Below are positions 1 to 43,435 of a stretch of 64,000 bases of DNA, in pieces (position 1 is the first letter of the stretch; the number at the start of each line of letters is the position of its first letter). Origin of the DNA: a bacterium (GTDB lineage: Bacteria > UBA8248); contig OZ241875.1 in the NCBI GenBank assembly GCA_965203325.1, forward strand, positions 2,656,001 through 2,720,000, written 5' to 3'. The notes under the pieces are model-generated. The model made no database searches and was not told the origin of the DNA. It worked only from the letters and a program-made list of their open reading frames with translations. Both the position numbers and the translations under genes were made by a program.

Positions 1-242
1 TCGAGCGGACCCTCGAAGACGTCGATCTTGACGTTGAACCGCTCGGAATCATCCGAAGCCTCTGAGGCGGTCTCCAGCCCCTCGGGGTGGTCCGCATCGG
101 GCGCACGGCCGGTCTCCAGGATTTCCCAGTTATCGGGATTTCCCGCGGACATATCGCTGCCCCAGGGCAGATCGGCGAAGCCGGTCGCCTCTGAAGGCGC
201 AGCCGAGCCTTCTGGTGGTGGCGTATTTTCTGGGGGATTCAT
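1..242 (-). CDS. scpA: Segregation/condensation protein A, N-terminal part (runs off the window start)
   Basis: Not in the ORF track. The reverse strand from ATG at 242 reads MNPPENTPPPEG...DDSERFNVKIDVFEGPL(D); FEGPLD is the ScpA N-terminal signature. An in-frame alternative ATG lies at 317. Confidence 0.8.
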   Translation of the reverse strand, partial: MNPPENTPPPEGSAAPSEATGFADLPWGSDMSAGNPDNWEILETGRAPDADHPEGLETASEASDDSERFNVKIDVFEGPL

Positions 243-501
243 GCTCACCCCGGATGGGCGGACTGAGCGGTCTTTGCCGGGCGATTTCACGAGCCCACGG
301 GCGGGGAGACTCTCCATCACCCAGGAATTACTTTCAAGCCTAGAAAATATGGATATTCTTGTCAAATGGGAAAAATCGGAATTTTTCAAAAAATTCAAGC
401 GCTTATGCGTCTTCCTCTCGACCGGTCGCCTCGTCCGCCTTGAGGGAGAAGCGCCTCTGGGGGATAATCGGAGTTCTGATAATCTCGACGAGGAGGAATC
501 G

Positions 502-1344
502 ATGGCAGGCAAAATCATGTCTCTCACGCAAGCGGCGGCCCTGGTGCAGGATGGAGATTTGCTCGCCTTGGGCGGAAACGCGCTCACGAGAATTCCCGCC
601 GCCTTCGTCCGGGAACTCGCCCGTCAGGGGCGGGAGAATTTGCGTCTCGTGAAGACGGCCGGCGCCTATGACGTCGACTTGCTCTGCGCGGCGGGGGCCG
701 TGGCGCAGACGCAGACGGGCTACGTGGGATTCGAGAACCTCTTCGGCCTGGCGCCCTCCTACCGCAGGGGCGTGGAGGAAGGCCGCGTGCAAGCGGTCGA
801 ACACGCCTGCTCCACCGTCATCGCGGGTCTCAGGGCCTCCGCGCATGGCCTGCCGAGCCAACCCGTGGCGGGTCTGGAGGGCAGCGACATGGCGGCGCAT
901 ACCGGTTTCCGGAAAGCGAGAGACCCCTACACGGGCGAGTCGGTATTCATGATCCCGAAAATCAGGCCCAGATTCGCCGTTCTCCATGTGACGTACGCAG
1001 ACTCCGAGGGAAACGCTCGGATAGACGGCGGCGCGTTCGAGGACGTCTTGATGTCCAGAGCCGCCGAGTCGGTGATCCTGACGGCGGAGCGCATCGAGGA
1101 GACCGCGTTTTTCGTCGAGAAACCCGACAGAACGGCGGTTCCCGCCTTCATGGTGAAAGCCGTCGTGCACGCGCCGGGAGGGGCGCGGCCCGGGGGATGT
1201 CATCCGTTCTACGATATCGACGAAGAAGCGGTGGGCGCATACCTCGATTCGGCGGCCGGCGCGGAATCCCTGCGCGCTCATCTCGATTCCTGGGAGGAGC
1301 GCGACCATGCAGGAAGCGTGGCGGCGTCGAGGGGCGTCGGATGA
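502..1344 (+). CDS. Family I CoA-transferase alpha subunit (GctA/IpdA-like)
   Basis: MAGKIMSLTQAAALVQDGDLLALGG, VLHVTYADSEGNA and VVHAPGGARPGGC motifs; GAGGAGG RBS before ATG 502. Confidence 0.85.
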   Translation: MAGKIMSLTQAAALVQDGDLLALGGNALTRIPAAFVRELARQGRENLRLVKTAGAYDVDLLCAAGAVAQTQTGYVGFENLFGLAPSYRRGVEEGRVQAVEHACSTVIAGLRASAHGLPSQPVAGLEGSDMAAHTGFRKARDPYTGESVFMIPKIRPRFAVLHVTYADSEGNARIDGGAFEDVLMSRAAESVILTAERIEETAFFVEKPDRTAVPAFMVKAVVHAPGGARPGGCHPFYDIDEEAVGAYLDSAAGAESLRAHLDSWEERDHAGSVAASRGVG

Positions 1345-2093
1345 GCGTCGCAATGCGCGAAGGCGCGTCCGAGGAGGTGCGCGCCGCCGCCGACAGGATG
1401 GCGGTTTTTCTCTCCAGATTCATCCGCGACGGGGAACTCGTATTTCACGGCGTGGCATCCGCGCTGCCGATGGCGGCGATCGTCATGGCCCGGAACACCC
1501 ACGCGCCGCACCTGACCTACCTGAACATACCGGGCGGCGTGGACCCCAAACCCTCTTATCTTCCCGGCTCCACCGTGGCGCGGCAGCTCATGGAAGGCGC
1601 GCTTTCGTATTTCAACCTCACGGAAATTTTTGATCTGTCCGCCCGGGGCAAGCTCGACCTGGCGTTTCTGGGCGGCGCGCAAATCGACGCAAGGGGCGAG
1701 GTGAATCTCTCCTTCATCGGGGACCCCGCGGCCCCCAAGGTGCGCCTTCCGGGCGGCGCGGGCAGCGCGCACATTCTGCCCACGGCCGGGCGGACGGTTC
1801 TCTGGCGGACGGTTCACGACACGAGGAGCTTTCCCGAGCGCTGCGATTTCGTGACCGCTTCGGGCAACGTGGATGCGGTGGTGACGCCCTTGTGTATTTT
1901 TGAGAAGGCGGACGGCCGCCTGCGGGTCAAGTCGATTCACCAGGGCGTAACGCCCGATGCCTTGCGCGCGTCCACGGGGTTCGATCTCGGTGATTTGGAG
2001 CGCGCCCCCACCACGCCTGAACCGACGGATGCCGAGCGCACAGCACTCCACGCCGCAGACCCCGAAGGTGTCCGCCTGCGCGAATTCATCTGA
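1341..2093 (+). CDS. Family I CoA-transferase beta subunit (GctB/IpdB-like)
   Basis: DLAFLGGAQIDARGEVNLS and RLPGGAGS motifs; ATGA overlap with the alpha stop. Confidence 0.85.
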   Translation: MSVAMREGASEEVRAAADRMAVFLSRFIRDGELVFHGVASALPMAAIVMARNTHAPHLTYLNIPGGVDPKPSYLPGSTVARQLMEGALSYFNLTEIFDLSARGKLDLAFLGGAQIDARGEVNLSFIGDPAAPKVRLPGGAGSAHILPTAGRTVLWRTVHDTRSFPERCDFVTASGNVDAVVTPLCIFEKADGRLRVKSIHQGVTPDALRASTGFDLGDLERAPTTPEPTDAERTALHAADPEGVRLREFI

Positions 2094-5506: not shown

Positions 5507-6523
5507 ATGACGGCGATCGATCCCCATACCCATATCTATCCCGGGCAGTTCATCGCGGACGTGCGTGCGGGCCGCTTCGGACGCACGGCGACGATAGAGG
5601 CCGACGAACACGGCGAGTGGCTCATTACGCGTGGAAAGGTGCTCGGGCGCGACTCGGAGCTCAGGAACAAGCTCACGCCCCTTTACTATGAGCTTGCGCC
5701 CCGCTTCGCCGACATGGAGCGGATGGGCGTTGCGCACCAGGTGCTCTCCATCGGCCCCGCCATGACGCTCTATACGCTCGAGGCGGAAGCGAACAGGGAA
5801 CTGGCCGCCTCGCTGAACGACGGCCTGACGGCGCTGGCGAGGGAGTATCCCGACAAGTTCTCCTGCATGGCCACCGTACCCCTCCAGGCGCCCGAAGCCG
5901 CGGCGGCGGAACTCGAACGGGCGTGTGCGAACGGCCACCTCGGCGTGATGATCGCCTCGAACGTGGCGGGGGAGAACCTGGACGATCCGGGTCTGGACGT
6001 CTTCTGGGCGAAGGCCCAGGCGCTTGATGTGCCCGTTTTCGTGCATCCCACGAACGTGCTGGGCGGGGACGACCGCTTAAAGGATTTCTACCTGAGGAAC
6101 TTCATCGGCAATCCGCTCGACACCACGGTCGCGGTGGCGTGCCTCATCTTCGGCGGCGTGATGGACAGGTTCCCGGGGCTTCGGTTCTATCTCTCCCACG
6201 TGGGCGGCTTCGTGCCCTGGATCAGAGGCCGCTGGCAGCACGGCTACGGCGAACGCAGGGAACCGAAGGTGCAGGGCGCGAAAGACCCCGAGCAGTATTT
6301 CGGCCGCTTCTATTACGACACCATCATCCACAACGCGGACTGCTTCGAGTTCGCCGCGAAGACGCTCGGAGCGGAGCGGATTCTCTACGGGACGGACTAT
6401 CCGGCGGACATGGGCTATCACCAGCCCGCGCGGGATATCCCGGGCCTGAGCCGCCTCCCGGAAGCGGAGCAGGAGATGATTCTCACGACCAACGCCAGGC
6501 GCGTCTACGGGCTTGCGATATAG
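5507..6523 (+). CDS. Amidohydrolase 2 family protein, copy 2
   Basis: IDPHTH, PVFVHP, SHVGG, YGTDYPAD motifs; same length as and paralogous to copy 1. Confidence 0.9.
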   Translation: MTAIDPHTHIYPGQFIADVRAGRFGRTATIEADEHGEWLITRGKVLGRDSELRNKLTPLYYELAPRFADMERMGVAHQVLSIGPAMTLYTLEAEANRELAASLNDGLTALAREYPDKFSCMATVPLQAPEAAAAELERACANGHLGVMIASNVAGENLDDPGLDVFWAKAQALDVPVFVHPTNVLGGDDRLKDFYLRNFIGNPLDTTVAVACLIFGGVMDRFPGLRFYLSHVGGFVPWIRGRWQHGYGERREPKVQGAKDPEQYFGRFYYDTIIHNADCFEFAAKTLGAERILYGTDYPADMGYHQPARDIPGLSRLPEAEQEMILTTNARRVYGLAI

Positions 6524-6606
6524 GGGCTGGACAAAGCGTCTTCCAGGTGTAAAATTCAATCAGGTATTCCAGTTTGAGCCGGTTCAACTGCAAAGGGGAA
6601 GTTCCG

Positions 6607-6894
6607 ATGGAGGAAACCACCTTCCGCGTGGGCGACAGGGTGCGCATCAAGGAGATGTACCCCGACGGCCACCACCGGACGACGTACTTCGTGAAGGGAA
6701 AGACGGGCGTCGTCAACCGCTATTTCGGCAAATACAAGAACCCCGAGAATCTCGCCTACGGCGGCGACGGCCTGCCGCTCCGGGAACTCTACTGGGTGGA
6801 GTTCGACATCAACGATCTCTGGGATCACGAGGCGGGGAAAAAGCAGGACAAACTCTATATCGAGATTTATGAGCATTGGCTGGAGCCGGTCTAG
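6607..6894 (+). CDS. Nitrile hydratase beta C-terminal (SH3-like) domain protein / thiocyanate hydrolase alpha-like
   Basis: FRVGDRVRI...GHHRT..FVKGKTG...LYWVEF...LW...IEIYEHWLEP pattern; only 95 aa. Confidence 0.85.
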   Translation: MEETTFRVGDRVRIKEMYPDGHHRTTYFVKGKTGVVNRYFGKYKNPENLAYGGDGLPLRELYWVEFDINDLWDHEAGKKQDKLYIEIYEHWLEPV

Positions 6895-6932
6895 GCGAAT
6901 CCACCGGCTCCCCTGTGAGCGAGGAGCAAACC

Positions 6933-9216: not shown

Positions 9217-10122
9217 CTAGCACCCGGCGTCCGTATACGCGGCGCGTTCCTCGTCCTTGAAGTCGTCCAGCAGGTTGTGCCCGCCCTCTTGTCCCTGCCG
9301 GACGGCGAAGATGGGCGGCGGCACGTCGGGGCGCCATTTGGTGGTCTCGGGCGGTTCGGGCCACTCATAGGGCAGGTGCCGGTAGGCGTTGGGCGCGTCC
9401 GCTTCTTCGAGCAGCGCGGCCATGTCCTCGCAAATCCGGCGCTGGCCCGCGTAATCGCCCACGACGCCCAACTGCCGCCCGAAGGGATACTGCACGAAAA
9501 CGGCTCTCGGCACGCAGACGCGCTCGGTGGTCTCGGGCACGTTGGAGATGATGACGGTGGCGATTCCCGCCTTTTCGATCTCGCGCTGAAGCAGTCCGCC
9601 GGACCGGTTGCAGAGCGGTCAGACCGGATAGAGAAAGGCCGCGTCCACGCCTTCGGCCTTCATCTTCTCGATCATCAGGGGCGCGGTGCGCTTCACCAGC
9701 GGGTTGAAGTTCGGGATGTAGCCCATGATGGAATAGAGCGTATCGGCCAGCGCGCCGATTTTCCCCTCCCGCTCGAAATCGAGAAAGATGTCGACCGGCC
9801 AGGAGACGTTCCTGTCCTCGGCCATGAACGAGGTGTCGACGTGCAGGTGGGAATATTCCACGTTGCCCTGGCCCGCCGTCCTGGGGATCTCCCGGTGGGT
9901 GGGGTCGCCCCAGGTGCCCTCGCGGCGCTCCCGTTCGTAGTCGAAAGAAACGTCGTCCTTCATGAAGATGCCGGCCGTGGAGACGAGGGTGACCCTGCAC
10001 TCCGCGAGCGGTTTCGCCATCGGCGTCCACGGCGTTTTGGCCGGGTCGGCGTGGCGCTGCGCCAGGACGCGCTCGCGCGAGGTGGGGTGGAAATAGAATC
10101 CATCGACTCTTTCGATTGGCAT
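9217..10122 (-). CDS. PrdB/GrdB-like selenoprotein (glycine/sarcosine/betaine/proline reductase selenoprotein B family), 301 aa, Sec at codon 168
   Basis: ORFs 9619..10140 and 9217..9540 are in one frame separated by a single TGA (9621-9619): ...VDAAFLYPV-U-PLCNRSGGLLQREIEKAGIATV...VPRAVFVQYPFG. N-half has KPLAECRVTLVSTAG, GDPTHREIP, EDRNVSWPVD. GAGGA RBS before ATG 10122. Confidence 0.9.
9577..9621 (-). promoter_or_regulatory. Putative bacterial SECIS element
   Basis: After UGA: ccgcu-CUG-c-AA-c-CGGUCC-ggc-GGACUG-c-UU-CAG-c-gcg. Hand-folded hairpin with a G-initiated apical loop 18 nt downstream of the UGA. Confidence 0.7.
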
Positions 10123-10150
10123 TATGATCCTCGAATTCATGTTTCAAGAT

Positions 10151-11419
10151 TCAGGCGGGAGACGCTCCTCTCTTATCTCTTTTCACCCAGCCGAGCAACA
10201 CGGCGAAGAAGCCGCAGAGAAAGAACATGAGCGCGAAGGCCGACAAGCCCCACAGATAGGAGCCGTGCAGGTCGAACAATGCGCCCGTCGTCCATGGCCC
10301 CGCCGAGCCCCAGAGGGCGAAGCCCATCATCGCCACGCCGTTCACGCGCCCGAAGCCCGGGCCTTCGAAATAATCCGCGAGGATGGCCGAGCCGGTGGGC
10401 CGTATGAGGCCGAGCGCCAGACCGTTGGTTATCGTGCCGATGTAGAAGCGGAACTCGGGGTCTCCCTTCTCGTAGGTGGCGAGAACGAGGGCGGAGGCGA
10501 TTCCGAGCGCGTTGCCGATGAGGTAGGTCGGCACCCGTCCCAGCCGGTCCGAGACCGGGCTTACGAGGTTCGCCCCCACCTGGCAAAGCCCCCATATGGC
10601 GAACAGCACGCTCGCGGTCTGGAGCGAGAAGCCCTGGTCGGTGGCGTGGGGCACCAGATGCACGAGCATGCCCGCGAAGGCGTAGGCCATGGGCAGGAAC
10701 GAGCCCATGAAGAAGAAAAACGGCAGGTTGTACATGGAGACCGGCGGCCCGTCGGCGGATGGAGGCGCTGGTTCCGGCGCTCCTTCTTCCGGTAGGTTCT
10801 GGACGAAGGGCGCGTCGGCGATGGTGCCTTTCTCGGATGGGTGGTCCCTGTGAAAAATGATGCAGACGGGGAGCACGATGAGCAGCGTCACGCCCGCCAG
10901 CGCGAGATAGCTCATCCGCCAGCCCAAGGCCGCGATGAGGTAGGGCGTGGCGATGTTCAGGCAGAAGGCCCCTCCCTGGCAGGTGTTGGAAATGCCTAAG
11001 GCGAGCCCTCTTTTTTTCACGAACCAGTTCGAGAGCGTGGGCACCTGGGCGATCCACGTGCTCGCGGCGAAGCCCGCGCACAGGCCGATGTACATCAGGT
11101 AAAAATGCCAGAGCGAGGTGATCTGGCTCCCGATGAGCAGGGAGAGGCCGAACACCACGACCCCCGCCGACATCGACGCCCGGATGCTCCAGCGGTCGGA
11201 GAAGATGCCCGCCAGCGGCGAGATGATCGCCTGGGCCACCATCCCGATGGAAAAAGCCGCCGCCGTCGCGCCCCGGCTCCAGCCCAGCTCGCCCGAGATT
11301 TCCTTGAAGAAGGGCCCGATGGTGGCGCGGAAGGCGATGAGGGTGATCATGACGAGGAAGACCACGCCCAGGACCACCCAGCCGTACCAGAGGCGCGAAT
11401 CGTCCCGCATGGCGTCCAT
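10151..11419 (-). CDS. MFS transporter (OFA/MCT-like), copy 2
   Basis: WYGWVVL, WFVKKRGLALG, SDRLGR; many hydrophobic segments. Confidence 0.9.
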   Translation of the reverse strand: MDAMRDDSRLWYGWVVLGVVFLVMITLIAFRATIGPFFKEISGELGWSRGATAAAFSIGMVAQAIISPLAGIFSDRWSIRASMSAGVVVFGLSLLIGSQITSLWHFYLMYIGLCAGFAASTWIAQVPTLSNWFVKKRGLALGISNTCQGGAFCLNIATPYLIAALGWRMSYLALAGVTLLIVLPVCIIFHRDHPSEKGTIADAPFVQNLPEEGAPEPAPPSADGPPVSMYNLPFFFFMGSFLPMAYAFAGMLVHLVPHATDQGFSLQTASVLFAIWGLCQVGANLVSPVSDRLGRVPTYLIGNALGIASALVLATYEKGDPEFRFYIGTITNGLALGLIRPTGSAILADYFEGPGFGRVNGVAMMGFALWGSAGPWTTGALFDLHGSYLWGLSAFALMFFLCGFFAVLLGWVKRDKRGASPA

Positions 11420-11423
11420 GGCC

Positions 11424-12713
11424 CTAGGCGCGCTCTTCGCGCGGCATGCGCGTGAGGCTCACCACGAAAACCGCGCCCGTGACGAACATGCAGCCCACGA
11501 GGAGGAAACCCGCGTAGTAGTTACCGCTCGCATCGAAGAGCATGCCCGTCACGAGGGGGCCCAAAGCGCCCACGACCGAGAAGACCATCATCGCGCACCC
11601 GTTCACGAGGCCGAAGCCCCGCCCCGCGAAATGATCCGCCAGAAGGGAAGACGCCGTGGGCCGGACGAATCCCAGAGCGAAGCCCACCCCCATCGCGCCC
11701 GCGTATATCCGCCACCCGGCCGACGCTTGCGTGAAGGCGGCCAGGAGGTAGCACGCGGCCACCCCGCACACCACCCCCACCATGAAGGTGGGGAGCCTCC
11801 CGATGCGATCCGATACCGCGCTCAGCCCGTTTCCCGCGACGAGGGCCGCCCCGTAAAGGGCGAAGAGTGCTGCGCCCCCCGAGGGGGAGAAGCCCTGGTC
11901 CGTCGCGTGGGGGATCAGGTGCACCAGGACGGCGGTGAAGATGTAGGCGATGCTGCCGTAGATGCCGCCGAGCAGCATGAACCTGCGGGTGAAGAAAAAA
12001 GAGAATGAGGCGGTCTCTTTCTCCTTATCTAAAGGGATGATGACGGCGGCTCTGGCGCGGGCGCGGGAGAATTCCTCGGAAGTGAGAAAGGGCGCGTCGG
12101 GCGCGGTGCGCTTCTCTCTGGGGTGCTCGCGCAGCAGCGCCACGGCGAAGGGCAGCAGGAAAAGAAGCACGACCCCCGCCAGCGCGAGGTAGCTCGCCCG
12201 CCAGCCGAAGGCCGCGATGAGCAGGGGGGTGAAGATGTTCACGATGGGCGCGAAGCCCTGGGCGGCGTGCGAAAATCCCATCGCGAGCCCGCGTTTCAGA
12301 ACGAACCAGTTGGCGAGCAGTTGCACCTGGGGCAGGTTGGCCGTGAAGGCGAAGCCCAGCGAGAGCAGGAAATACATGGCGTAGAAATGCCAGAGCGCGC
12401 CGATGTAGGCGCCGATGATGAGCGCCGCGCCGTTCACGAGAATGCCCGCCCCGATGACCCAGCGCATGTTGAAGCGCTCGAGCACCCATCCCGCGAAGGG
12501 GGCCACCAGCCCCTGGCCGAGCATGCCCATGGTGAAGGCGGCGGCGGTCTGCGCGCGGTTCCAGCCGAACTCGCCCGATATCTCCTTGAAGAAGACGCCG
12601 ATGGAGTTCCTGATGCCGATGACCACCGTCATGACGATGAAGACGCTGAGGAGGATCACCCAGCCGTACCACAGGCGCAGTTCTTTTCGGGTCTGGTAGC
12701 GCGATGCGATCAA
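11424..12713 (-). CDS. MFS transporter (OFA/MCT-like), copy 1
   Basis: WYGWVIL, WFVLKRGLAMG, SDRIGR; probable TTG start at 12713 overlapping the NifU-like stop (TTGA). Confidence 0.85.
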   Translation of the reverse strand: MIASRYQTRKELRLWYGWVILLSVFIVMTVVIGIRNSIGVFFKEISGEFGWNRAQTAAAFTMGMLGQGLVAPFAGWVLERFNMRWVIGAGILVNGAALIIGAYIGALWHFYAMYFLLSLGFAFTANLPQVQLLANWFVLKRGLAMGFSHAAQGFAPIVNIFTPLLIAAFGWRASYLALAGVVLLFLLPFAVALLREHPREKRTAPDAPFLTSEEFSRARARAAVIIPLDKEKETASFSFFFTRRFMLLGGIYGSIAYIFTAVLVHLIPHATDQGFSPSGGAALFALYGAALVAGNGLSAVSDRIGRLPTFMVGVVCGVAACYLLAAFTQASAGWRIYAGAMGVGFALGFVRPTASSLLADHFAGRGFGLVNGCAMMVFSVVGALGPLVTGMLFDASGNYYAGFLLVGCMFVTGAVFVVSLTRMPREERA

Positions 12714-13048
12714 GTCGATGACTGGTCTTTGAGCGGATGCCCCACCCAAAACGAATAGCCGGAGTAGAATTTCTCCACCCGTTTGATGGCGTGATCGGAG
12801 ATGCGAACGCCCTCGACGGCGACGTCCGTGACGCCGGGGTGCTGCATGAGCTTCTGGCGCACGCCCAGGGCGTAGGTGACGCTCTTGAGCATGCAGCCCC
12901 GGCACGCGCCCTCGAAGCGAAGCGAGACTTCGCCGTTCTCGCTCACGCCCTCGAGCGTGATACCCCCGCCGTGAATCTTGAGAAGCGGGCGAATCTGCGT
13001 CTCGATGATGTCCTCGACGTCTGAGATTAAGGCTTCGTGCTCGTTCAT
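12710..13048 (-). CDS. NifU/NfuA C-terminal domain protein
   Basis: IRPLLKIHGGGI...FEGACRGC motif; ATGA overlap with the upstream amidohydrolase. Confidence 0.85.
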   Translation of the reverse strand: MNEHEALISDVEDIIETQIRPLLKIHGGGITLEGVSENGEVSLRFEGACRGCMLKSVTYALGVRQKLMQHPGVTDVAVEGVRISDHAIKRVEKFYSGYSFWVGHPLKDQSST

Positions 13049-14073
13049 CCCGCCGCTCCGTTCCAGAGTTCCCGTTTCTTCGCCTCCACGTCCACGCCGA
13101 AGATGCGCGCCTGGTTGAGTCCCAGGATGTTGCGCTTGTCCTCTTCCGTGATCTGCGGATAGCCGTAGTCGTCCTGCATGGATTCGGGGATCTCCATCTC
13201 CCATATCCACTCGATGACGGGCTTCGCGTTCCCCAGGAGCGCCATCTCCGAACCCCAGAGCACTCGCTCGGAGCCCACGTCGCGGAGCAGCCTGCCCATC
13301 CACTCGGTGAAAGTCCTCGGCGCGATCATCGGCGTGTGGCCGATGCCCGAGAGCACCAGGAACACGTTCTCGTAGCGGTTCGCCATCCAGACGACTTCCT
13401 CGAAATAGGGCACCGCCAGGTGGTGGACGCCGAAGAGGAGATCGGGAAAATCGAGCGCCGCGCCCTCGATGTCGAGCGGCGAGAGGTCGCGCAGCTTCGC
13501 CCGCGTGATGGGGTTTCCCTTGTGGAACTGGAACACCTCGACACCCAGCTCGCGTCCTTTCTCATAGAGGGGATAGGCGATTTCGGGGTCGTCGCACGCC
13601 CAGGATTTCCCGTCCACGTGGGCGTTGTAGATCTTGATGGACCGCGCCCCCCACTCCTTCACCTGGCGCTCCATCTCCTCGCACGCGGCGGCCACGCTCG
13701 GGTACATGGGGTCCACGGCCCCGCAGAACAGGCAGCGTTCGGGATAGGCCTGCGCGAAAGCGTACTGCGCCTTCACGGGCGCGAAGCCGTCCTTATAAAG
13801 ATCGAACAGGGGCACGGCCTGGGCCATCGCCATGTCGGTGCCCGAATCCTCGAAGACGAGGCGGCCCATGTCCTCGACGGTCCAGCGGCGCTTGAAGCCC
13901 TCCACCGGGTGCCAGTTCGCGTAGACGTCGGTGGGCGCGGTCCGCCTCCTGCCCAGCACCTTGCTCACGTGGTAGTGGCGGTCGTATTCGCTTTGCTCCG
14001 AGACGAGGTTCTCATCCGAGTAGTCGTACATGTGCACCACGTTGTCGAAGACGAATACGTCGCCGCGGATCAT
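13045..14073 (-). CDS. Amidohydrolase family (TIM-barrel metal-dependent) protein
   Basis: DNVVH, FHKG, VHH, RVLWGSE, ITEEDKRNILGLNQARIFG; AAGGAG RBS. Confidence 0.8.
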   Translation of the reverse strand: MIRGDVFVFDNVVHMYDYSDENLVSEQSEYDRHYHVSKVLGRRRTAPTDVYANWHPVEGFKRRWTVEDMGRLVFEDSGTDMAMAQAVPLFDLYKDGFAPVKAQYAFAQAYPERCLFCGAVDPMYPSVAAACEEMERQVKEWGARSIKIYNAHVDGKSWACDDPEIAYPLYEKGRELGVEVFQFHKGNPITRAKLRDLSPLDIEGAALDFPDLLFGVHHLAVPYFEEVVWMANRYENVFLVLSGIGHTPMIAPRTFTEWMGRLLRDVGSERVLWGSEMALLGNAKPVIEWIWEMEIPESMQDDYGYPQITEEDKRNILGLNQARIFGVDVEAKKRELWNGAAG

Positions 14074-14167
14074 GAGAGGAAACTCCTTCCGTGGGACAAG
14101 AATCACCACCGCCAGATTAGCACACGGCGCGCGGGCGTGTCAGATGTTGGAAGGATTTCAGGTTTCG

Positions 14168-31296: not shown

Positions 31297-33930
31297 ATGA
31301 GCGAAAGCCGAGTATCAGACGCTGAGGATAAAGAACCGAGAAAGCCGGGCCGGATTCGCGATTTGAGGGCAAGACAATCCGTCCGGATCATCGACAAGCT
31401 CGCCACCAACATCATCACCGTCGGCGGGCTTTTCGTGATTCTGGCCGTGCTCGGGATCATGGCGTTTCTCGTGGCAGTGGCCTTGCCGCTGTTCGCCGGA
31501 GAAACGATAACCGGCTCGGGTGTCTTCCGGGTCGCTGCGCCCAAGAGCCCTCTCCTCAGTGTCGAGGTGGATGATTACAAAACCATCGCCGTCCTGGTTT
31601 CGAAAGACGGCGTGTTGACGCCCGTCCACGCATCGACCGGAAAACCGCTCGCGACGTTGAAACTCGATTTCGAGGGCGCCGAGGCGAGCGCTTTCGGGCG
31701 AACGCTCAAGGGCGGAAACGTCGCCTTCGGCTTCCCGGATGGAACGGTCCGGTTCGGAAAGATCGTCTTCCGCACACAGATATTGCCGGCCGAAAGGGTT
31801 CCGAAGGGACTCACCAAAATCGACGAGCGCGATTTCACCGACGGCAAGGTCGTTTATTCGCGGATTCCGGGCGACCAGATGCGGAAAATCTGGGTGGAAT
31901 CAGAAGTCAAGGAACCGCAGGAGGTGGCGCCGCAAGGCACGCCCATCGTGAAACTCGACTACAAGGTGGGCGGGACTCCCGAGCGCCCGAGCATTTCCTT
32001 CGCCACGGTGGACGCCAAGGGCGTGGCGCGCCTGAGCCTGACGGAGACGAGAGTCAATCTCCTGACAGGGCAAACCACTTCGTCCGTAGAGAGCGTGGTT
32101 CTGCCCGACTTGCCGCCCGGAACGCGCATCGTCGACATACTCCTCACGGAAAAGGCCGATAAAGTCTACATCGGCGTCGAGAATGGATTCCTCCTTCGCT
32201 ACGACACCAGGAACTTCGACGCCATTACTCTCGTGGAGAAGCGCGATCTGCTTCCCATGGATGAGAAGCTGACGGTGTTCAAGACCCTCATCGGCGAGGA
32301 ATCCATCGTCGTGGGAGGCTCCAGGGGGTCATTGAGCATCTTCTTCCAGGCGCGCAGGCCGGGCGCCACCACCTCGGACGGACTGGTGTTGGTGCGCGGT
32401 CATGAACTGGAGAAGCACGCCGCCGCCGTTTCGGGCTTTTCCACCTCCCAGCGCAGCCGGATGTTCGTCACGATGGGCTCGGGCGGAGACATCTGGCTTC
32501 GCCATGCCACGAGCGAGTCGACGCTGCTGCGCTTCAAGATGAAGGACATGACCGGCTCTGCGCGATACATCCGCCTTTCCCCGCGCGATGACGCAATTGT
32601 CGCCACGGACGAGAAGGGCGTGGTGAATTTCTGGAAATTCGAGGCCGAACACCCCGAGACGACCTTTCAGACCCTGTTCGGAAAAGTCTGGTACGAAGGC
32701 TATCCCAAGCCCGAGTATACGTGGCAATCCTCCTCGGGAGACGATGCGTTCGAGGAGAAGATTTCCCTCATCCCCCTGATATTCGGGACCATCAAGGGAA
32801 CGGTTTATTCTCTCATCTTCGCGATACCCATCGCGGTGCTGGGCGCTATTTTCACCTCCGAGTTCATCGGCCCGGAAGTGCGCTCCGTCGTGAAGCCCGC
32901 GATGGAGATGATGGCCTCGCTACCCTCGGTGGTTCTCGGCTTCGTGGCCGCCCTGATACTGGCGCCCATCGTGGAAACGTGGATAGCCGCGGTCTTGCTC
33001 ACGTTCATGCTGATCCCGTTTCTGCTGTTGCTCTCTGCCTATTTATGGCAAGTGATGCCGCCGCGGGTCTCCCTTCCCCTGTCGGGATTTCCCAAGCTCG
33101 GCCTGGTGTTCTTCGTGATCATTCTGGGCTCGCTGCTCGGCTATCTTATCGGGCCGGGATTCGAGAGGCTCTTGTTCGGCGGCGACTTCAAGGCCTGGGC
33201 GAACGGAAACATCGGCATTGCGACGCCGATGCTGTTCATCATTTTTTATCCCGCCTCATTCATACTCGTTGCTTTCCTGGCCGAGCGGTTTTTGGGATAT
33301 GGATGGAGACAAAAACTCAGACAGATGGACCATTCACGGGGTGCGCTCTTCGAGCTTCTCCGCTGGGGCGGAACGCTGGTCGTCGCCGGACTGCTGAGCT
33401 GGGTGACGGCCGTGGTGCTCACGGCGCTCGGTCTGGATGCGCGCGGCGGGGTCATCGACACCTATGTCCAGCGCAACTCCCTCGTCGTGGGCTTCGCAAT
33501 GGGTTTCGCCGTCATCCCGCTCATCTACACCATCGCCGAAGACGCGCTCAACTCCGTGCCGAGCCACTTGAGAGCGGCGAGCCTCGCTTGCGGCGCCACG
33601 CCCTGGCAGACGGCGCTTTGGGTCATCCTGCCCACGGCGGCCAGCGGGATTTTCGCCGCCGTGATGATCGGCATGGGCCGCGCGGTGGGCGAAACGATGA
33701 TCGTCGTCATGGCGGCGGGCAACACCCCGGTTCTGGACTGGAACATTTTCTCGGGCCTCAGGGCGCTTTCGGCGAACATCGCGGTGGAACTTCCAGAAGC
33801 CGTCAAGGACGGGACGCTCTACCGGGTGCTGTTCCTGGCGGCCCTCGTCCTCTTCGCGATGACGTTCGTCGTCAATACGATTGCAGAGGTGGTTCGCCTG
33901 CGCTTCCGCAAGCGCGCCGCGCAGTTGTGA
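31297..33930 (+). CDS. pstC: Phosphate ABC permease, long form with a large soluble beta-rich insert
   Basis: LIPLIFGTIKG, EMMASLPSVVLGF, GRAVGETMIVVMAAGN. Confidence 0.9.
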   Translation: MSESRVSDAEDKEPRKPGRIRDLRARQSVRIIDKLATNIITVGGLFVILAVLGIMAFLVAVALPLFAGETITGSGVFRVAAPKSPLLSVEVDDYKTIAVLVSKDGVLTPVHASTGKPLATLKLDFEGAEASAFGRTLKGGNVAFGFPDGTVRFGKIVFRTQILPAERVPKGLTKIDERDFTDGKVVYSRIPGDQMRKIWVESEVKEPQEVAPQGTPIVKLDYKVGGTPERPSISFATVDAKGVARLSLTETRVNLLTGQTTSSVESVVLPDLPPGTRIVDILLTEKADKVYIGVENGFLLRYDTRNFDAITLVEKRDLLPMDEKLTVFKTLIGEESIVVGGSRGSLSIFFQARRPGATTSDGLVLVRGHELEKHAAAVSGFSTSQRSRMFVTMGSGGDIWLRHATSESTLLRFKMKDMTGSARYIRLSPRDDAIVATDEKGVVNFWKFEAEHPETTFQTLFGKVWYEGYPKPEYTWQSSSGDDAFEEKISLIPLIFGTIKGTVYSLIFAIPIAVLGAIFTSEFIGPEVRSVVKPAMEMMASLPSVVLGFVAALILAPIVETWIAAVLLTFMLIPFLLLLSAYLWQVMPPRVSLPLSGFPKLGLVFFVIILGSLLGYLIGPGFERLLFGGDFKAWANGNIGIATPMLFIIFYPASFILVAFLAERFLGYGWRQKLRQMDHSRGALFELLRWGGTLVVAGLLSWVTAVVLTALGLDARGGVIDTYVQRNSLVVGFAMGFAVIPLIYTIAEDALNSVPSHLRAASLACGATPWQTALWVILPTAASGIFAAVMIGMGRAVGETMIVVMAAGNTPVLDWNIFSGLRALSANIAVELPEAVKDGTLYRVLFLAALVLFAMTFVVNTIAEVVRLRFRKRAAQL

Positions 33931-33937
33931 GGACAGG

Positions 33938-35764
33938 ATGAAGGCGAAAGAACCAAAGAAGAAAAAAGACAAGAAAAAAGCGGAGATGCCGGTTCCGGAA
34001 GCCGACTCGGGCAATTACATGGAACCCGGGCCCGAAGCGGCGCAGACCTTGGAGGCGGAAAAAAGCCCGCCCGGCCGGACGGGACTTCGGGCGTCACTCG
34101 ATTTCAAGGCCAGAGGCGAGCCTTTCATCTGGGTCATGGGCGGAGCGCTCGCTCTGGGCGTGTTGATGATCATCGGTTTTCTCGCGCTCGTCCTGTGGAA
34201 CGGCATCGTGACGTTCTACCCGGGTCCGGTGGAGGTGGTGACTCTCAAGAACGGCAAGAAAATCGCCGGCGAGCCGTTTCGCTCGGAGAACTTTCGCCCC
34301 TCCGAGGAGCAGTTGAAAGGTGTCGACCCCGAATCCCGGCGCGCCATCCGGGAGGCGGACGGGTTTGCGAGCCGCACGCTCTATAGAATCGGAAATTTCG
34401 ACATTTATAACGAAGACTTCAAGTGGGCGGTGGCGCATCAGGTAGCCAAAACCGAGACGCCGCCCGGCATATTCTTCGTCGAGCGCAGGGAGTGGGGCCC
34501 GTTCATCGGTTTTATTAAAGAATTGACGCTCGACGGCCGCCGGATTCCGGGCGAAAAAGTATCTCTGGATGCGTTGTACGCGGCTCACGATGAGGCGGTC
34601 GATCGCAGGGAAGCCGTTCGCTCCATCGAGGTGGACGAGATAGGCGCCATCAACTACTACATCGAAGAAGACAGGCTCGCCCTGCGGCGCACCGAACTCG
34701 ACTACGGGAAGAAGAGTGCGGCGTATCGCACCGAGAAGGAGAGGTTCGAACGCCAGACGAAGGAGAGGCGGGCCGGATTCGCTGTACTTAAGAAGCGAAT
34801 CGCCGCTGTCAACGAAGAGGATGAGAAATTCAAAATCACCCTCCGGGAGATCGGTGGCCGCGAGAAACGTTTGAGGCTCTCGGAACTCGTCCGCATCTAC
34901 CCGGCCAACGACCTGTCGTTCTTCGGGAAGATGGGCGTCTATTTCTCCCGGTGGGGCGAGTTTTTGACTGACGACCCACGCGAAGCGAATACCGAAGGCG
35001 GCGTTCTGCCTGCGATTTTCGGCACCGTCATGATGACGCTGCTCATGGTCGTCTTCGTCGCTCCCTTCGGCGTGGTCACGGCGCTCTATCTGCGTGAATA
35101 CGCCAAGCAGGGCACCCTGGTCTCCATCGTGCGCATCTGCGTGAACAACCTCGCGGGCGTGCCCTCCATCGTCTACGGCGTGTTCGGCCTGGGATTTTTC
35201 GCCTACACCATCGGAATTAGAATCGACCAGTTGTTCTACCCGGAGAAGCTGCCCAACCCTACCTACGGGACCGGCGGTCTTCTATGGGCGTCCCTGACGC
35301 TGGCGCTCCTCACCGTTCCCGTGGTGATCGTGGCGACCGAGGAGGCGCTCGCCGCTGTTCCCCGCTCCATGCGGGAGGGTTCTCTCGCTTGCGGCGCCTC
35401 GAAATGGCAGACCATCCGGAACATCGTTCTGCCCCAGGCGATGCCGGGCATCATGACCGGCCTTATACTGGCGATGGCGCGCGGGGCGGGCGAAGTGGCG
35501 CCTCTCATGCTTGTGGGGGTGGTGAAACTCGCGCCTGAGCTTCCTTTCGACTCCTTCTTCCCGTTCCTGCACCCGGAGAGAAGCTTCATGCACCTGGGTT
35601 TCCACATCTACGACGTGGGGTTCCAGTCTCGAAACTCGGAAGCGGGGAAACCGATGGTTTTCGTCACGACGCTTCTTCTGATCGCAATCATCGCTTTCAT
35701 GAACGCTTTCGCCATCATGGTTCGCAACCGCCTTCGCCGGAAGTTCGTGGAAGGCCAATTCTAG
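33938..35764 (+). CDS. pstA: Phosphate ABC permease, long form
   Basis: PREANTEGGVLPAIFGT, NNLAGVPSIVYG, ARGAGEVAPL. Confidence 0.92.
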   Translation: MKAKEPKKKKDKKKAEMPVPEADSGNYMEPGPEAAQTLEAEKSPPGRTGLRASLDFKARGEPFIWVMGGALALGVLMIIGFLALVLWNGIVTFYPGPVEVVTLKNGKKIAGEPFRSENFRPSEEQLKGVDPESRRAIREADGFASRTLYRIGNFDIYNEDFKWAVAHQVAKTETPPGIFFVERREWGPFIGFIKELTLDGRRIPGEKVSLDALYAAHDEAVDRREAVRSIEVDEIGAINYYIEEDRLALRRTELDYGKKSAAYRTEKERFERQTKERRAGFAVLKKRIAAVNEEDEKFKITLREIGGREKRLRLSELVRIYPANDLSFFGKMGVYFSRWGEFLTDDPREANTEGGVLPAIFGTVMMTLLMVVFVAPFGVVTALYLREYAKQGTLVSIVRICVNNLAGVPSIVYGVFGLGFFAYTIGIRIDQLFYPEKLPNPTYGTGGLLWASLTLALLTVPVVIVATEEALAAVPRSMREGSLACGASKWQTIRNIVLPQAMPGIMTGLILAMARGAGEVAPLMLVGVVKLAPELPFDSFFPFLHPERSFMHLGFHIYDVGFQSRNSEAGKPMVFVTTLLLIAIIAFMNAFAIMVRNRLRRKFVEGQF

Positions 35765-42443: not shown

Positions 42444-42474
42444 CGGATACCCGTTCTCATTCAGGAGAAAGACA

Positions 42475-42921
42475 ATGGCTGAAGACATGATGGAAAACTA
42501 CGTCGACAAGAACCCCGACGTTCAGGAACGATTCAGGAAAGCGGGCGAAATCCGCCGCGCGATGGGAATCTACGGAGAAGGCGGGCAGACCACGAGCGAT
42601 TTTCTGCAAATTTCTCCGGCGCACACGCAGACCATCATGGAGTATTGCTTCGGCATGGTGTGGGCGCAGTCGGAGACGCTCGACCTGAAAACGCGCGAAA
42701 TCATCGTGCTCGCCACCATGGTGGCGCAGGATCTGCCCGGAGAGCTGGAATGGCACGTGCGCTCCGCTCTCAATCTGGGCCTCACGCAAGATGAGATCAT
42801 CGAAGCTATCGTGCAGTGCTCCCCCTACGTCGGTCTCCCCAAGACGAACCATGCGCTGAGAGCGGCGAAGCGCGCTTTCGATGAGGCCGAGGGAAAAGAA
42901 CCGAGCGATCTGGGGCACTAG
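42475..42921 (+). CDS. Carboxymuconolactone decarboxylase (CMD) family protein
   Basis: FGMVW...LDLKTREIIVLA...HVRSALNLGLT..EIIE...YVGLP. Confidence 0.85.
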   Translation: MAEDMMENYVDKNPDVQERFRKAGEIRRAMGIYGEGGQTTSDFLQISPAHTQTIMEYCFGMVWAQSETLDLKTREIIVLATMVAQDLPGELEWHVRSALNLGLTQDEIIEAIVQCSPYVGLPKTNHALRAAKRAFDEAEGKEPSDLGH

Positions 42922-42946
42922 GGGTTGTTCCTGCTCGCCGAGGGGT

Positions 42947-43435
42947 TTATTCCCCCTTGAGGAGCCTGGGCCAGTTCTTATCGCCCAGTTTGATGTTGCC
43001 GGGGATGTCCTGCTCCCAGGTCTGCTGAACGCCCTTGCTGTAGTTGAGATAGAGCTTGCCGTCCACGATCTTCCAGGCTTCGGGGACGATGCTCGCCGTG
43101 TAGCCCCGGCTCACGGCGTATGCGCAGTAGCCTCCGTACCGGGGGGCGTATTTTTCAGGATTCGCGCGGAACAGATCGCGGTTTTTCCCGCTCGAGAAAT
43201 ACCAGGTGGCGCCCTTCCACTTGTGGGAGAAGGCCTTCTTCCCCTGGACGGGTTTACTCTCGGTGAAATAGGCCACCGGGTCATACCCCCGGATGGCGCC
43301 TCCCAGCAAAGTGGAATAAACGGGCGTGATGGCCGCAGCCGACACAGGAAGAACGAGCAAGAAGGCGGCGAGCCATGCAGTGGCCCATACCCGTCGGTGG
43401 CGAGAGTTCCATAGCGATTGATTTGGTTTGCGCAT
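42947..43435 (-). CDS. Secreted YHS-domain protein (Cys form of a family with Sec members)
   Basis: GYDPVAYF, PEKYAPRYGGYCAYAV, IVDGKLYLNY; signal peptide. Confidence 0.85.
   Translation of the reverse strand: MRKPNQSLWNSRHRRVWATAWLAAFLLVLPVSAAAITPVYSTLLGGAIRGYDPVAYFTESKPVQGKKAFSHKWKGATWYFSSGKNRDLFRANPEKYAPRYGGYCAYAVSRGYTASIVPEAWKIVDGKLYLNYSKGVQQTWEQDIPGNIKLGDKNWPRLLKGE

What the first reader, a model, noticed from the sequence alone, without database searches (positions are those of the whole stretch)
9217..10122. Hidden selenoprotein: in-frame UGA joins two ORFs into one PrdB/GrdB-like protein with UxxC
Seen: the minus-strand ORFs 9619..10140 and 9217..9540 share a frame and are separated only by TGA at 9621-9619. 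Readthrough gives FLYPV-U-PLC-NRSGGLLQREIEKAGIATV, and a hand-folded hairpin (CGGUCC/ggc/GGACUG plus a lower stem) has its loop 18 nt after the UGA. Known: D-proline reductase PrdB-type selenoproteins carry Sec in this context (acidic-hydrophobic strand, U, then E..GI.TV and PRA), and bacterial SECIS elements lie just 3' of the UGA. Inference: a 301-aa selenoprotein that standard gene calling splits or labels a pseudogene.
Basis: partly seen in the sequence, partly recalled or inferred. Interest (0 to 1): 0.85.

Follow-up and report, generated by a model that had tools for sequence, protein, structure and literature searches.

The report
Stand-alone PrdB-like selenoprotein gene
The apparent stop codon inside this gene almost certainly encodes selenocysteine, so the two pieces are one protein of an already catalogued selenoprotein family that gene callers routinely cut in half.

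Summary
Two minus-strand ORFs share a frame across one TGA (9619-9621). Read through, they give a 301-aa protein (start 10122) with a U-P-L-C motif. The reading as a selenoprotein is well supported:
- TGA is kept in 31 of 31 related loci and in two paralogues in this genome.
- Codons after it are under purifying selection as strong as those before it.
- 56 of 80 distant homologues that span the column have Cys there.
- The Sec aligns with the Sec of this genome's own GrdB.
- tRNA-Sec, selA, selB and selD are all present.
- The 6-bp hairpin (9592-9606) is the gene's minimum of synonymous variation, and its geometry matches the selD and grdB hairpins of this genome.

The protein passes Pfam GRDB but fails the PrdB and GrdB equivalog cut-offs. 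The genome has no PrdA or PrdC, so it is PrdB-like, not a demonstrated D-proline reductase.

"PrdB, pfam07355, UxxC" has been listed among the most abundant marine selenoprotein families since 2005, and relatives of this lineage are listed as selenoprotein-rich. This is an ordinary new member with unknown substrate. Earlier notes of this scan flagged two other selenoprotein genes, of other families, in this genome.

The parts
9217..10122 (-). Full selenoprotein CDS: 301 codons including Sec, stop TAG at 9217-9219. An alternative upstream ATG lies at 10140. The report numbers residues from 10140 (P0001), so Sec is U174; counted from 10122 it is U168.
   Evidence: frame and TGA; purifying selection on both sides of the TGA; orthologues start at the Met equivalent to 10122.
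10128..10132 (-). Shine-Dalgarno-like GAGGA, 5 nt upstream of the ATG at 10122.
   Evidence: Read directly from the sequence. No such motif lies before the ATG at 10140.
9619..9621 (-). In-frame UGA read as selenocysteine (U174).
   Evidence: TGA in 31 of 31 related loci and 2 paralogues. One TGA inside almost every phylum match that spans this column. Aligns with the Sec of this genome's GrdB. No variant letters in contigs of 4 runs.
9610..9612 (-). Cys177 codon (TGC), the C of the UxxC motif and the presumed resolving thiol.
   Evidence: At least 90% conserved in alignment A3. 48 of 80 distant homologues are CxxC at these two columns.
9592..9606 (-). SECIS-type hairpin: 6-bp stem CGGUCC/GGACUG with triloop GGC. 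The loop starts 18 nt after the UGA.
   Evidence: RNAalifold recovers it on its own. 96.5% of cells are paired against 22-55% when the partners are slid. The stem codons R179 CGG, S180 TCC and L183 CTG are the only invariant six-fold codons, 3 of 34. selD and grdB of this genome have the same geometry.
10151..14109 (-). Context: co-directional, tightly packed upstream genes. Amidohydrolase_2 (13045-14109), NifU-like (12710-13303), MFS (11424-12905) and MFS (10151-11419, whose stop TGA lies 28 nt before the 10122 start). Probably one operon with the selenoprotein gene.
   Evidence: Pfam. The order is conserved only in the close relatives; the divergent loci have other neighbours.

Best explanation
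This is one intact gene for a selenoprotein of the GrdB/PrdB superfamily (Pfam GRDB), of the short, PrdB-like, stand-alone type.

During translation, SelB carrying Sec-tRNA(Sec) binds the small hairpin at 9592-9606, whose GGC loop starts 18 nt after the codon, and inserts selenocysteine at UGA 9619-9621 instead of terminating.

The product is an alpha/beta (Rossmann-like) protein. Sec sits at the N-terminal cap of a helix just after a beta-strand, and Cys177 lies one turn further on. The two can therefore cycle between selenol/thiol and selenenylsulfide.

By analogy with GrdB and PrdB, Sec is the nucleophile of a reductive cleavage and Cys177 resolves the adduct. The substrate and any partner subunit are unknown. 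It is not part of a canonical D-proline reductase, because the genome has no PrdA or PrdC.

Shown: gene integrity, conservation of the UGA, family relationship, Sec machinery and RNA-level constraint on the hairpin. Inferred: SelB binding, the redox chemistry and the operon link to two MFS transporters.
For: 1. Same frame and a single TGA.
2. TGA at this column in 31 of 31 related loci and in 2 paralogues of the genome. 46 of 51 genomes of the phylum have a match, and nearly all matches spanning the column carry one TGA.
3. dN/dS after the UGA (codons 201-262: 0.08-0.35) equals that before it (0.09-0.28) in 10 comparisons. Codons 175-200 hold no ATG, GTG or TTG yet are conserved.
4. U174 aligns with the Sec of this genome's bona fide GrdB (E 6e-13). 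Of 80 distant homologues spanning the column, 56 have Cys (48 as CxxC), and 33 more end exactly there.
5. Pfam GRDB scores 37.3 bits against a cut-off of 22. TIGR04483 PrdB is the best NCBIfam hit, E 3.9e-36.
6. tRNA-Sec (75.9 bits, anticodon TCA), selA (571 bits), selB (393 bits) and selD (333 bits, itself with one TGA) are present.
7. Hairpin: it is the RNAalifold consensus. It holds the only 3 invariant codons among 34 conserved six-fold columns, and none of 69 four-fold columns is invariant. It gives the lowest synonymous-entropy window of 177. dS in codons 175-200 is below the upstream dS in 9 of 10 comparisons. selD (GGGUCC-GGA-GGACCU, loop at 17 nt) and grdB (7 bp, GGG loop at 18 nt) of this genome have the same geometry.
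8. TGA ends 7 of 10 Pfam-supported genes in the window, so the genetic code is standard.
9. The structure model has pLDDT 86.7, with U174 between strand 167-171 and helix 175-190.
Against: - No direct evidence of selenium incorporation or of translation past the UGA. No RNA run was available.
- Covariation in the hairpin is thin because it barely varies: one double-sided change (C-G to A-U) and five U-A to U-G, and 33 of 500 shuffles reach the observed score.
- Folding energy of the single sequence equals that of shuffles (z 0.19).
- No Rfam family matches.
- Paralogue 3076's hairpin is imperfect and grdA's differs (4-nt loop at 25 nt).
- 24 of 80 spanning homologues have neither Sec nor Cys at the column (S 9, G 7, W 3, D 2, N, E, T), so the residue is not universally essential.
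- 3 of 31 loci carry frameshifts inside the gene.
- The protein fails the curated cut-offs of all five NCBIfam models it hits.
- No conserved partner gene was found, so the chemistry is by analogy only.
Confidence: 0.93

Rival explanations
1. Genuine D-proline reductase subunit PrdB: the protein works with a pyruvoyl-bearing PrdA to cleave D-proline to 5-aminovalerate.
For: TIGR04483 PrdB is the best-scoring NCBIfam model (E 3.9e-36). IMG names homologues 'D-proline reductase (dithiol) PrdB'. The UxxC motif is the one listed for D-proline reductase (PMC13188914, table passage).
Against: The score is 124.7 bits against an equivalog cut-off of 300. The PrdA model finds only a 25.8-bit match inside GrdE against a cut-off of 700. 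PF09338 has a single hit, the GrdE of the grd cluster. PrdC scores 47.8 bits against a cut-off of 490. No such genes lie next to any of the 9 divergent loci and paralogues examined.
Confidence: 0.04
2. Alternative substrate-specific 'protein B' module that feeds this genome's glycine reductase system (GrdA, GrdE, thioredoxin) in trans. The three paralogues would then give three substrate specificities.
For: The genome has a complete-looking grdA-grdE-grdB cluster at about 523-526 kb. The protein is homologous to the C-terminal, Sec-bearing half of GrdB. Known sarcosine and betaine B components are paralogues of GrdB (NCBIfam names GrdF and GrdH).
Against: It lacks the N-terminal ~185 residues of GrdB. 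It is never adjacent to grd genes in the loci examined. No interaction was tested.
Confidence: 0.15
3. Pseudogene: a nonsense mutation truncates the protein at 173 residues and the downstream ORF is decaying.
For: Public gene calls end at this codon. 3 of 31 related loci have frameshifts in the gene.
Against: The identical TGA is kept in 31 of 31 loci and across paralogues only 38-66% identical. Downstream dN/dS is 0.08-0.35. Cys sits at the column in 56 of 80 homologues.
Confidence: 0.01
4. Two separate, translationally coupled genes, or UGA decoded as Trp, Gly or Cys rather than Sec (altered code or near-cognate read-through).
For: 3 of 80 spanning homologues show W at the column. These may be gene calls made under a TGA=Trp table.
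Against: There is no ATG, GTG or TTG in the 26 conserved codons after the UGA. TGA terminates 7 of 10 Pfam-supported genes in the window, including the MFS gene 28 nt upstream. The full Sec machinery and a constrained hairpin at SECIS distance are present.
Confidence: 0.02

Closest known systems
Marine 'proline reductase PrdB' selenoprotein family (pfam07355, UxxC) of the Sargasso Sea and GOS selenoproteomes (PMC1088965, PMC2398784; passages read)
   Same: Same Pfam domain, same UxxC Sec motif, and Sec forms coexist with Cys forms. GOS lists 235 Sec and 110 Cys sequences; here 33 stop-truncated and 56 Cys forms are among the top 150 representatives. Environmental, non-clostridial hosts.
   Different: I could not compare sequences with the published sets, because their supplementary tables were not opened. 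Identity with that family rests on domain plus motif. Those papers give it the name and function of PrdB without addressing the missing PrdA.
D-proline reductase PrdB of Clostridium sticklandii type (NCBIfam TIGR04483)
   Same: Best-scoring model. It aligns over residues 36-260 to model positions 18-234 of 238. Short form without the GrdB N-terminal domain, and a UxxC motif.
   Different: The score is less than half the equivalog cut-off. The protein has an extra N-terminal ~35 and C-terminal ~45 residues. The genome has no PrdA or PrdC.
Glycine reductase selenoprotein B (GrdB), including this genome's own copy at about 523 kb
   Same: 27% identity over 223 residues, with Sec aligned to Sec and a shared RSG and E..GI.TV context. 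Same type of SECIS hairpin at the same distance.
   Different: It lacks the GrdB N-terminal half. The motif is U-P-L-C against U-G-T-G in this genome's GrdB. It is not next to grdA or grdE.
Bacterial SECIS elements (the fdhF type, as I recall it: a stem-loop just 3' of the UGA with G in the apical loop)
   Same: Position directly downstream of the UGA inside the coding sequence. A small apical hairpin whose first loop base, G, is invariant.
   Different: Only a 6-bp stem with a 3-nt loop. There is no conserved lower stem, no bulged U, and no Rfam match. The fdhF comparison is recalled, not tested here.

Membership tests
Bacterial Sec-decoding gene (true selenoprotein) | In-frame UGA conserved among orthologues | tested here: met
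   31 of 31 loci plus 2 paralogues. One TGA in nearly all spanning matches in 46 of 51 phylum genomes.
Bacterial Sec-decoding gene (true selenoprotein) | Cys-containing homologues at the aligned position | tested here: met
   56 of 80 spanning homologues have Cys and 24 have other residues.
Bacterial Sec-decoding gene (true selenoprotein) | Coding constraint continues downstream of the UGA in the same frame | tested here: met
   dN/dS is 0.08-0.35 for codons 201-262 in 10 comparisons.
Bacterial Sec-decoding gene (true selenoprotein) | SECIS stem-loop immediately 3' of the UGA | tested here: met
   Consensus hairpin, the gene's synonymous-variation minimum and the same geometry in selD and grdB. 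Covariation itself is weak: 33 of 500 shuffles do as well.
Bacterial Sec-decoding gene (true selenoprotein) | tRNA-Sec, SelA, SelB and SelD in the genome | tested here: met
   All four score above the curated cut-offs.
Bacterial Sec-decoding gene (true selenoprotein) | Selenium found in the polypeptide | not testable with these tools
   Needs 75Se labelling or mass spectrometry.
Pfam GRDB (PF07355) | Score at or above the gathering threshold | tested here: met
   37.3 bits against 22, residues 38-170.
NCBIfam TIGR01918 (glycine/betaine/sarcosine/D-proline reductase selenoprotein B subfamily) | Score at or above the curated cut-off | tested here: not met
   54.4 bits against 65.45.
D-proline reductase PrdB (TIGR04483 equivalog) | Score at or above the equivalog cut-off | tested here: not met
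   124.7 bits against 300.
D-proline reductase PrdB (TIGR04483 equivalog) | Pyruvoyl proprotein PrdA encoded in the genome | tested here: not met
   TIGR04480 gives at best 25.8 bits against 700, and that match lies inside GrdE. PF09338 has a single hit, GrdE. The genome is one contig, 95.5% complete.
D-proline reductase PrdB (TIGR04483 equivalog) | PrdC electron-transfer protein | tested here: not met
   TIGR04481 gives at best 47.8 bits against 490.
Glycine reductase GrdB (TIGR01917 equivalog) | Score at or above the cut-off, full two-domain length, and grdA/grdE neighbours | tested here: not met
   48.5 bits against 602. It aligns only to GrdB residues 186-402. The neighbours are MFS transporters.

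The most novel reading that the evidence does not exclude
The stand-alone PrdB-like selenoproteins are not proline reductases. They would be an uncharacterised family of Sec/Cys-dependent reductases that work without a pyruvoyl PrdA partner. This phylum keeps them as Sec forms in three or more paralogues per genome. In this genus one copy sits in a conserved operon with two MFS transporters, a NifU-like protein and an amidohydrolase, which would point to reductive processing of an imported small molecule.
Probability: 0.45. Interest if true: 0.5.

Novelty: new member of a known kind. Interest (0 to 1): 0.27.

Why it matters
Practically, it is an annotation fix. Public gene calls for this family are cut at the UGA into a 167-172-aa stub, and the C-terminal half is lost. 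The same holds for two more paralogues in this genome.

Biologically, it adds a cleanly documented case to a family that is among the commonest marine selenoproteins. That family's usual name, PrdB, probably misstates its function in organisms without PrdA.

The in-genome SECIS pattern is a 6-7-bp stem with a GGN triloop 17-18 nt after the UGA, shared by selD, grdB and this gene. It could help find further selenoprotein genes in this selenoprotein-rich lineage.

Tried and rejected
- Single-sequence folding: the MFE of the 62 nt after the UGA equals that of shuffles (z 0.19). It is therefore not used as evidence.
Four of the seven added pairs are unpaired in 7-12 of 19 sequences, and overall it is no better than shuffles. 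Rejected.
- Rfam scan of 9400-9800 at E up to 10: only four chance-level hits and no SECIS family.
- PDB by sequence: nothing related, with either the single protein or the 20-sequence profile.
- Fold searches: Foldseek found 0 matches at E up to 0.001. The VIA-align wide search peaked at Z 8.5, on LacI/periplasmic-binding and SDR Rossmann folds, within the background range. So the fold is only a generic alpha/beta similarity, and no PrdB or GrdB structure was found to compare with.
- Conserved neighbours: the amidohydrolase-NifU-MFS-MFS context holds only in close relatives. Nine divergent loci and paralogues have unrelated neighbours (cyclase, ADH, DUF1207, FAA hydrolase, xanthine-dehydrogenase family, DoxX, cysteine dioxygenase, MDMPI) and no shared partner.
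- RNA evidence: no RNA holder was listed among the 24 runs, so expression was not assessed.
- BSepDB supplement search for 'proline reductase', 'PF07355', 'selenoprotein B' and 'UBA8248': 0 occurrences in the one file held. I cannot say whether that database lists this gene.
- Literature search for 'PrdB-like', 'GrdB-like', 'proline reductase-like' and 'PrdB homolog': 2 papers, both on Synergistota fluoroacetate metabolism and not relevant.
- Crude window scan for other in-frame-TGA genes with the same hairpin geometry: 4 candidates including the target. The two I translated (33872-34588 and 42457-43284, minus strand) are Arg/Pro-rich out-of-frame junk. The fourth (28-1515, plus strand) is a normal CoA-transferase stop.
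- translated the wrong frame of grdB. This was corrected.
- P0014 (302 aa) looks like a frameshifted gene call and was not used.

Full report
**Observation**

On the minus strand, ORF 9619..10140 and ORF 9217..9540 are in the same frame and are separated only by TGA at 9619-9621. Reading TGA as U gives one 307-residue product from the first ATG at 10140 (P0001; residue numbers below follow it), with ...DAAFLYPV-U174-PLC177-NRSGGLLQREIEKAGIATV....

GAGGA lies 5 nt upstream of it, and divergent orthologues begin at that Met.

The hairpin CGGUCC/GGC/GGACUG is at 9606-9592, and its loop starts 18 nt after the UGA.

**Is the UGA read through?**

- The search for related loci returned 31 loci from MAGs titled Nitrospinota, Nitrospinaceae or 'bacterium', at 66-95% protein identity.
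- All 31 have TGA at the same column, as do two paralogues elsewhere in this genome (C1:3076038 and C1:2498551).
- 28 of 31 keep the frame to the end. L057, L058 and L060 have frameshifts within the gene, of unknown cause.
- 46 of 51 species genomes of the phylum have a match, and all 22 other genomes of the genus have three or more. Nearly every match spanning the column carries one TGA. The rows with 'none' are fragments that stop before or start after residue 174, plus one 36%-identical match in G009.
- In 10 pairwise comparisons, dN/dS for codons 201-262 is 0.08-0.35, against 0.09-0.28 for codons 8-173.
- The 26 codons directly after the UGA contain no ATG, GTG or TTG, yet they are conserved. 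A separately initiated downstream gene is therefore excluded.
- TGA terminates 7 of 10 Pfam-supported genes in the window, including the MFS gene that ends 28 nt before the 10122 start. The code is therefore standard.
- Contigs of 4 runs from 3 studies cover 9592-9621 with no variant letters; the nearest variants are at 9580 and 9634. One of these runs may be the source of this DNA.

**Sec machinery**

The genome (one contig, 4.39 Mb, 95.5% complete) has the following, all above the curated cut-offs:
- tRNA-Sec, 75.9 bits; ARAGORN reports anticodon TCA;
- selA, 571 bits;
- selB, 393 bits;
- selD, 333 bits, itself with one in-frame TGA.

It also has a grdA (with TGA)-grdE-grdB cluster at about 523-526 kb.

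**SECIS**

Folding energy of this sequence alone is uninformative (z 0.19), and no Rfam family matches. The comparative evidence is strong.

I used 29 sequences: the window plus 28 loci, with the three frameshifted loci dropped.
- Only 3 of 34 conserved six-fold-degenerate columns use a single codon. They are R179 CGG, S180 TCC and L183 CTG, which are exactly the two arms of the stem.
- None of the 69 conserved four-fold columns is invariant.
- The 6-codon window starting at codon 178 has the lowest normalised synonymous entropy of 177 windows (0.112 against a median of 0.503).
- dS in codons 175-200 is below the upstream dS in 9 of 10 comparisons.

RNAalifold was run on 19 representative sequences out of the 35 collected, including the paralogues.
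- It returns just this 6-bp stem with a 3-nt loop whose first base, G, is invariant.
- 96.5% of cells pair, against 22-55% when the partners are slid.
- Variation is scant: one C-G to A-U change (the second tandem copy in L056) and five U-A to U-G changes. 33 of 500 shuffles reach the observed score.

The 13-pair structure pairs 82.2% of cells against 82.8% in shuffles.

Within this genome, other selenoprotein genes compare as follows:
- selD carries GGGUCC-GGA-GGACCU with its loop 17 nt after its UGA.
- grdB carries a 7-bp stem with a GGG loop at 18 nt.
- grdA differs, with a 4-nt loop at 25 nt.
- The two paralogues are weaker.

Three genes that must be served by one SelB thus share a short stem, a GGN triloop and a 17-18-nt spacing.

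**Family**

- Pfam GRDB is passed: 37.3 bits against 22, residues 38-170. The match stops just before the Sec.
- The best NCBIfam hit is PrdB TIGR04483 (E 3.9e-36), but its 124.7 bits are below the cut-off of 300.
- The broader TIGR01918 subfamily (54.4 against 65.45) and the GrdB, GrdF and GrdH models are also below their cut-offs.
- BLASTP against this genome's own GrdB aligns residues 19-221 to GrdB 186-402 (27% identity, E 6e-13). Sec falls on Sec, with a shared RSG and E..GI.TV context. The protein lacks the N-terminal half of GrdB.
- The exhaustive HMMER search finds 1,342 clusters at 50% identity with E up to 1e-3.
- Among the top 150 there were 153 matched stretches. 80 span column 174, and 56 of those have Cys (48 C..C, 5 C..S, 2 C..D, 1 C..G). 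The other 24 have S 9, G 7, W 3, D 2, N 1, E 1, T 1. 33 end at the column at their own C-terminus. 40 are other fragments.
- In the first search, 23 of 29 hits cover only the N-terminal ~55%. All six short forms that I aligned end in the column just before U174.
- Sources name the homologues 'D-proline reductase (dithiol) PrdB', 'glycine/sarcosine/betaine reductase selenoprotein B family protein' or hypothetical.

**It is not a canonical proline reductase**

- The PrdA model gives only 25.8 bits against 700, and that match lies inside GrdE.
- PF09338 hits only GrdE.
- PrdC gives 47.8 bits against 490.
- The gene ends a tightly packed, co-directional run: amidohydrolase_2, NifU-like, MFS, MFS. 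That order is conserved in the close relatives.
- Nine divergent loci and paralogues have unrelated neighbours and no shared partner.

**Structure**

AlphaFold2 on a 20-sequence alignment gives pLDDT 86.7 and pTM 0.87. U174 lies between strand 167-171 and helix 175-190, and C177 is in the first helical turn. This is the usual geometry of a redox-active CxxC or UxxC pair.

No solved relative exists by sequence. By fold there are only generic alpha/beta matches: Foldseek found none at E up to 0.001, and the best VIA Z was 8.5.

**Mechanism**

Shown: an intact gene, a conserved UGA, an RNA-constrained hairpin at SECIS distance, and the Sec machinery.

Inferred:
- SelB binds the hairpin and inserts Sec.
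- Sec174 and Cys177 act as a selenol/thiol redox couple.
- By analogy with GrdB and PrdB, as summarised in PMC13188914 (passages read), Sec attacks a substrate and Cys resolves the adduct.

The substrate and any partner are unknown.

**What is known already**

- 'Proline reductase PrdB' with a UXXC motif was the third most abundant selenoprotein family in the Sargasso Sea, with 42 genes (PMC1088965, passages and tables read).
- In GOS it is listed as pfam07355, UxxC, with 235 selenoproteins and 110 Cys homologues (PMC2398784, Table 2 passage read).
- Reviews list D-proline reductase (TIGR04483, UxxC) among the most widespread bacterial selenoproteins (PMC9312934 and PMC13188914, passages read).
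- BSepDB ranks MAGs of GTDB phylum UBA8248 at 48-54 selenoproteins each. One of them has the name of the record behind locus L050 (PMC13326102, passage read). That the window's genome belongs to this phylum is my inference from its relatives.
- The one BSepDB supplement held contained none of my search terms. The GOS supplementary tables were not opened. Sequence-level identity with the published sets is therefore not shown.
- My search for text on stand-alone 'PrdB-like' proteins found nothing relevant.
- Earlier notes of this scan report two other selenoprotein genes in this genome, OsmC-like and DUF442. I did not re-test them.

**Verdict**

It is a new member of a known family in a lineage already known to be rich in selenoproteins. 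It matters as an annotation correction, and as a well-documented example of the stand-alone PrdB-like type whose substrate remains unknown.

Noticed in passing
G000:C1:3075936-3076817 (+) (locus L025:1399-2289) and G000:C1:2498521-2499213 (+) (locus L027:1363-2163): Two further PrdB-like paralogues in the same genome, 66% and 38% identical. Each has TGA at the same column (motifs UPLC and UGLC). Their neighbours differ: an MDMPI/DinB-like gene for the first, DoxX and a cysteine-dioxygenase-like gene for the second. All 22 other genomes of the genus have three or more copies.
   Followed up: partly
G000:C1:522900-525771 (-) (loci L024, L028, L029): A bona fide grdA (one TGA)-grdE-grdB (Sec at residue 350, motif U-G-T-G with no Cys at +3) cluster. 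This implies a glycine/betaine-type reductase in a 'Nitrospinota'-labelled lineage.
   Followed up: partly
G000:C1:1726679-1727641 (-) (locus L019): selD is itself a selenoprotein gene. Its SECIS hairpin GGGUCC-GGA-GGACCU is almost identical in sequence to the one in the window gene. A 6-7-bp stem with a GGN triloop 17-18 nt after the UGA may be this lineage's SelB recognition pattern.
   Followed up: partly
L056:5468-5911 and L056:6001-6891: One relative carries two PrdB-like copies in tandem. The first copy's hairpin has A-U where all the others have C-G, which is the only compensatory change seen. Its N-terminal part lies in another frame or is interrupted.
   Followed up: no
L057, L058, L060 (matches at about 6001-6910): Three related MAG chromosomes or contigs have frameshifts inside this otherwise conserved gene. 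These could be assembly indel errors or real inactivation.
   Followed up: no
window 12710-14109 (-): The ORFs for amidohydrolase_2, the NifU-like protein and the first MFS transporter overlap by 196-259 nt as listed from the first possible start codon. The true starts of the NifU-like gene and of MFS 11424-12905 are probably further downstream.
   Followed up: no
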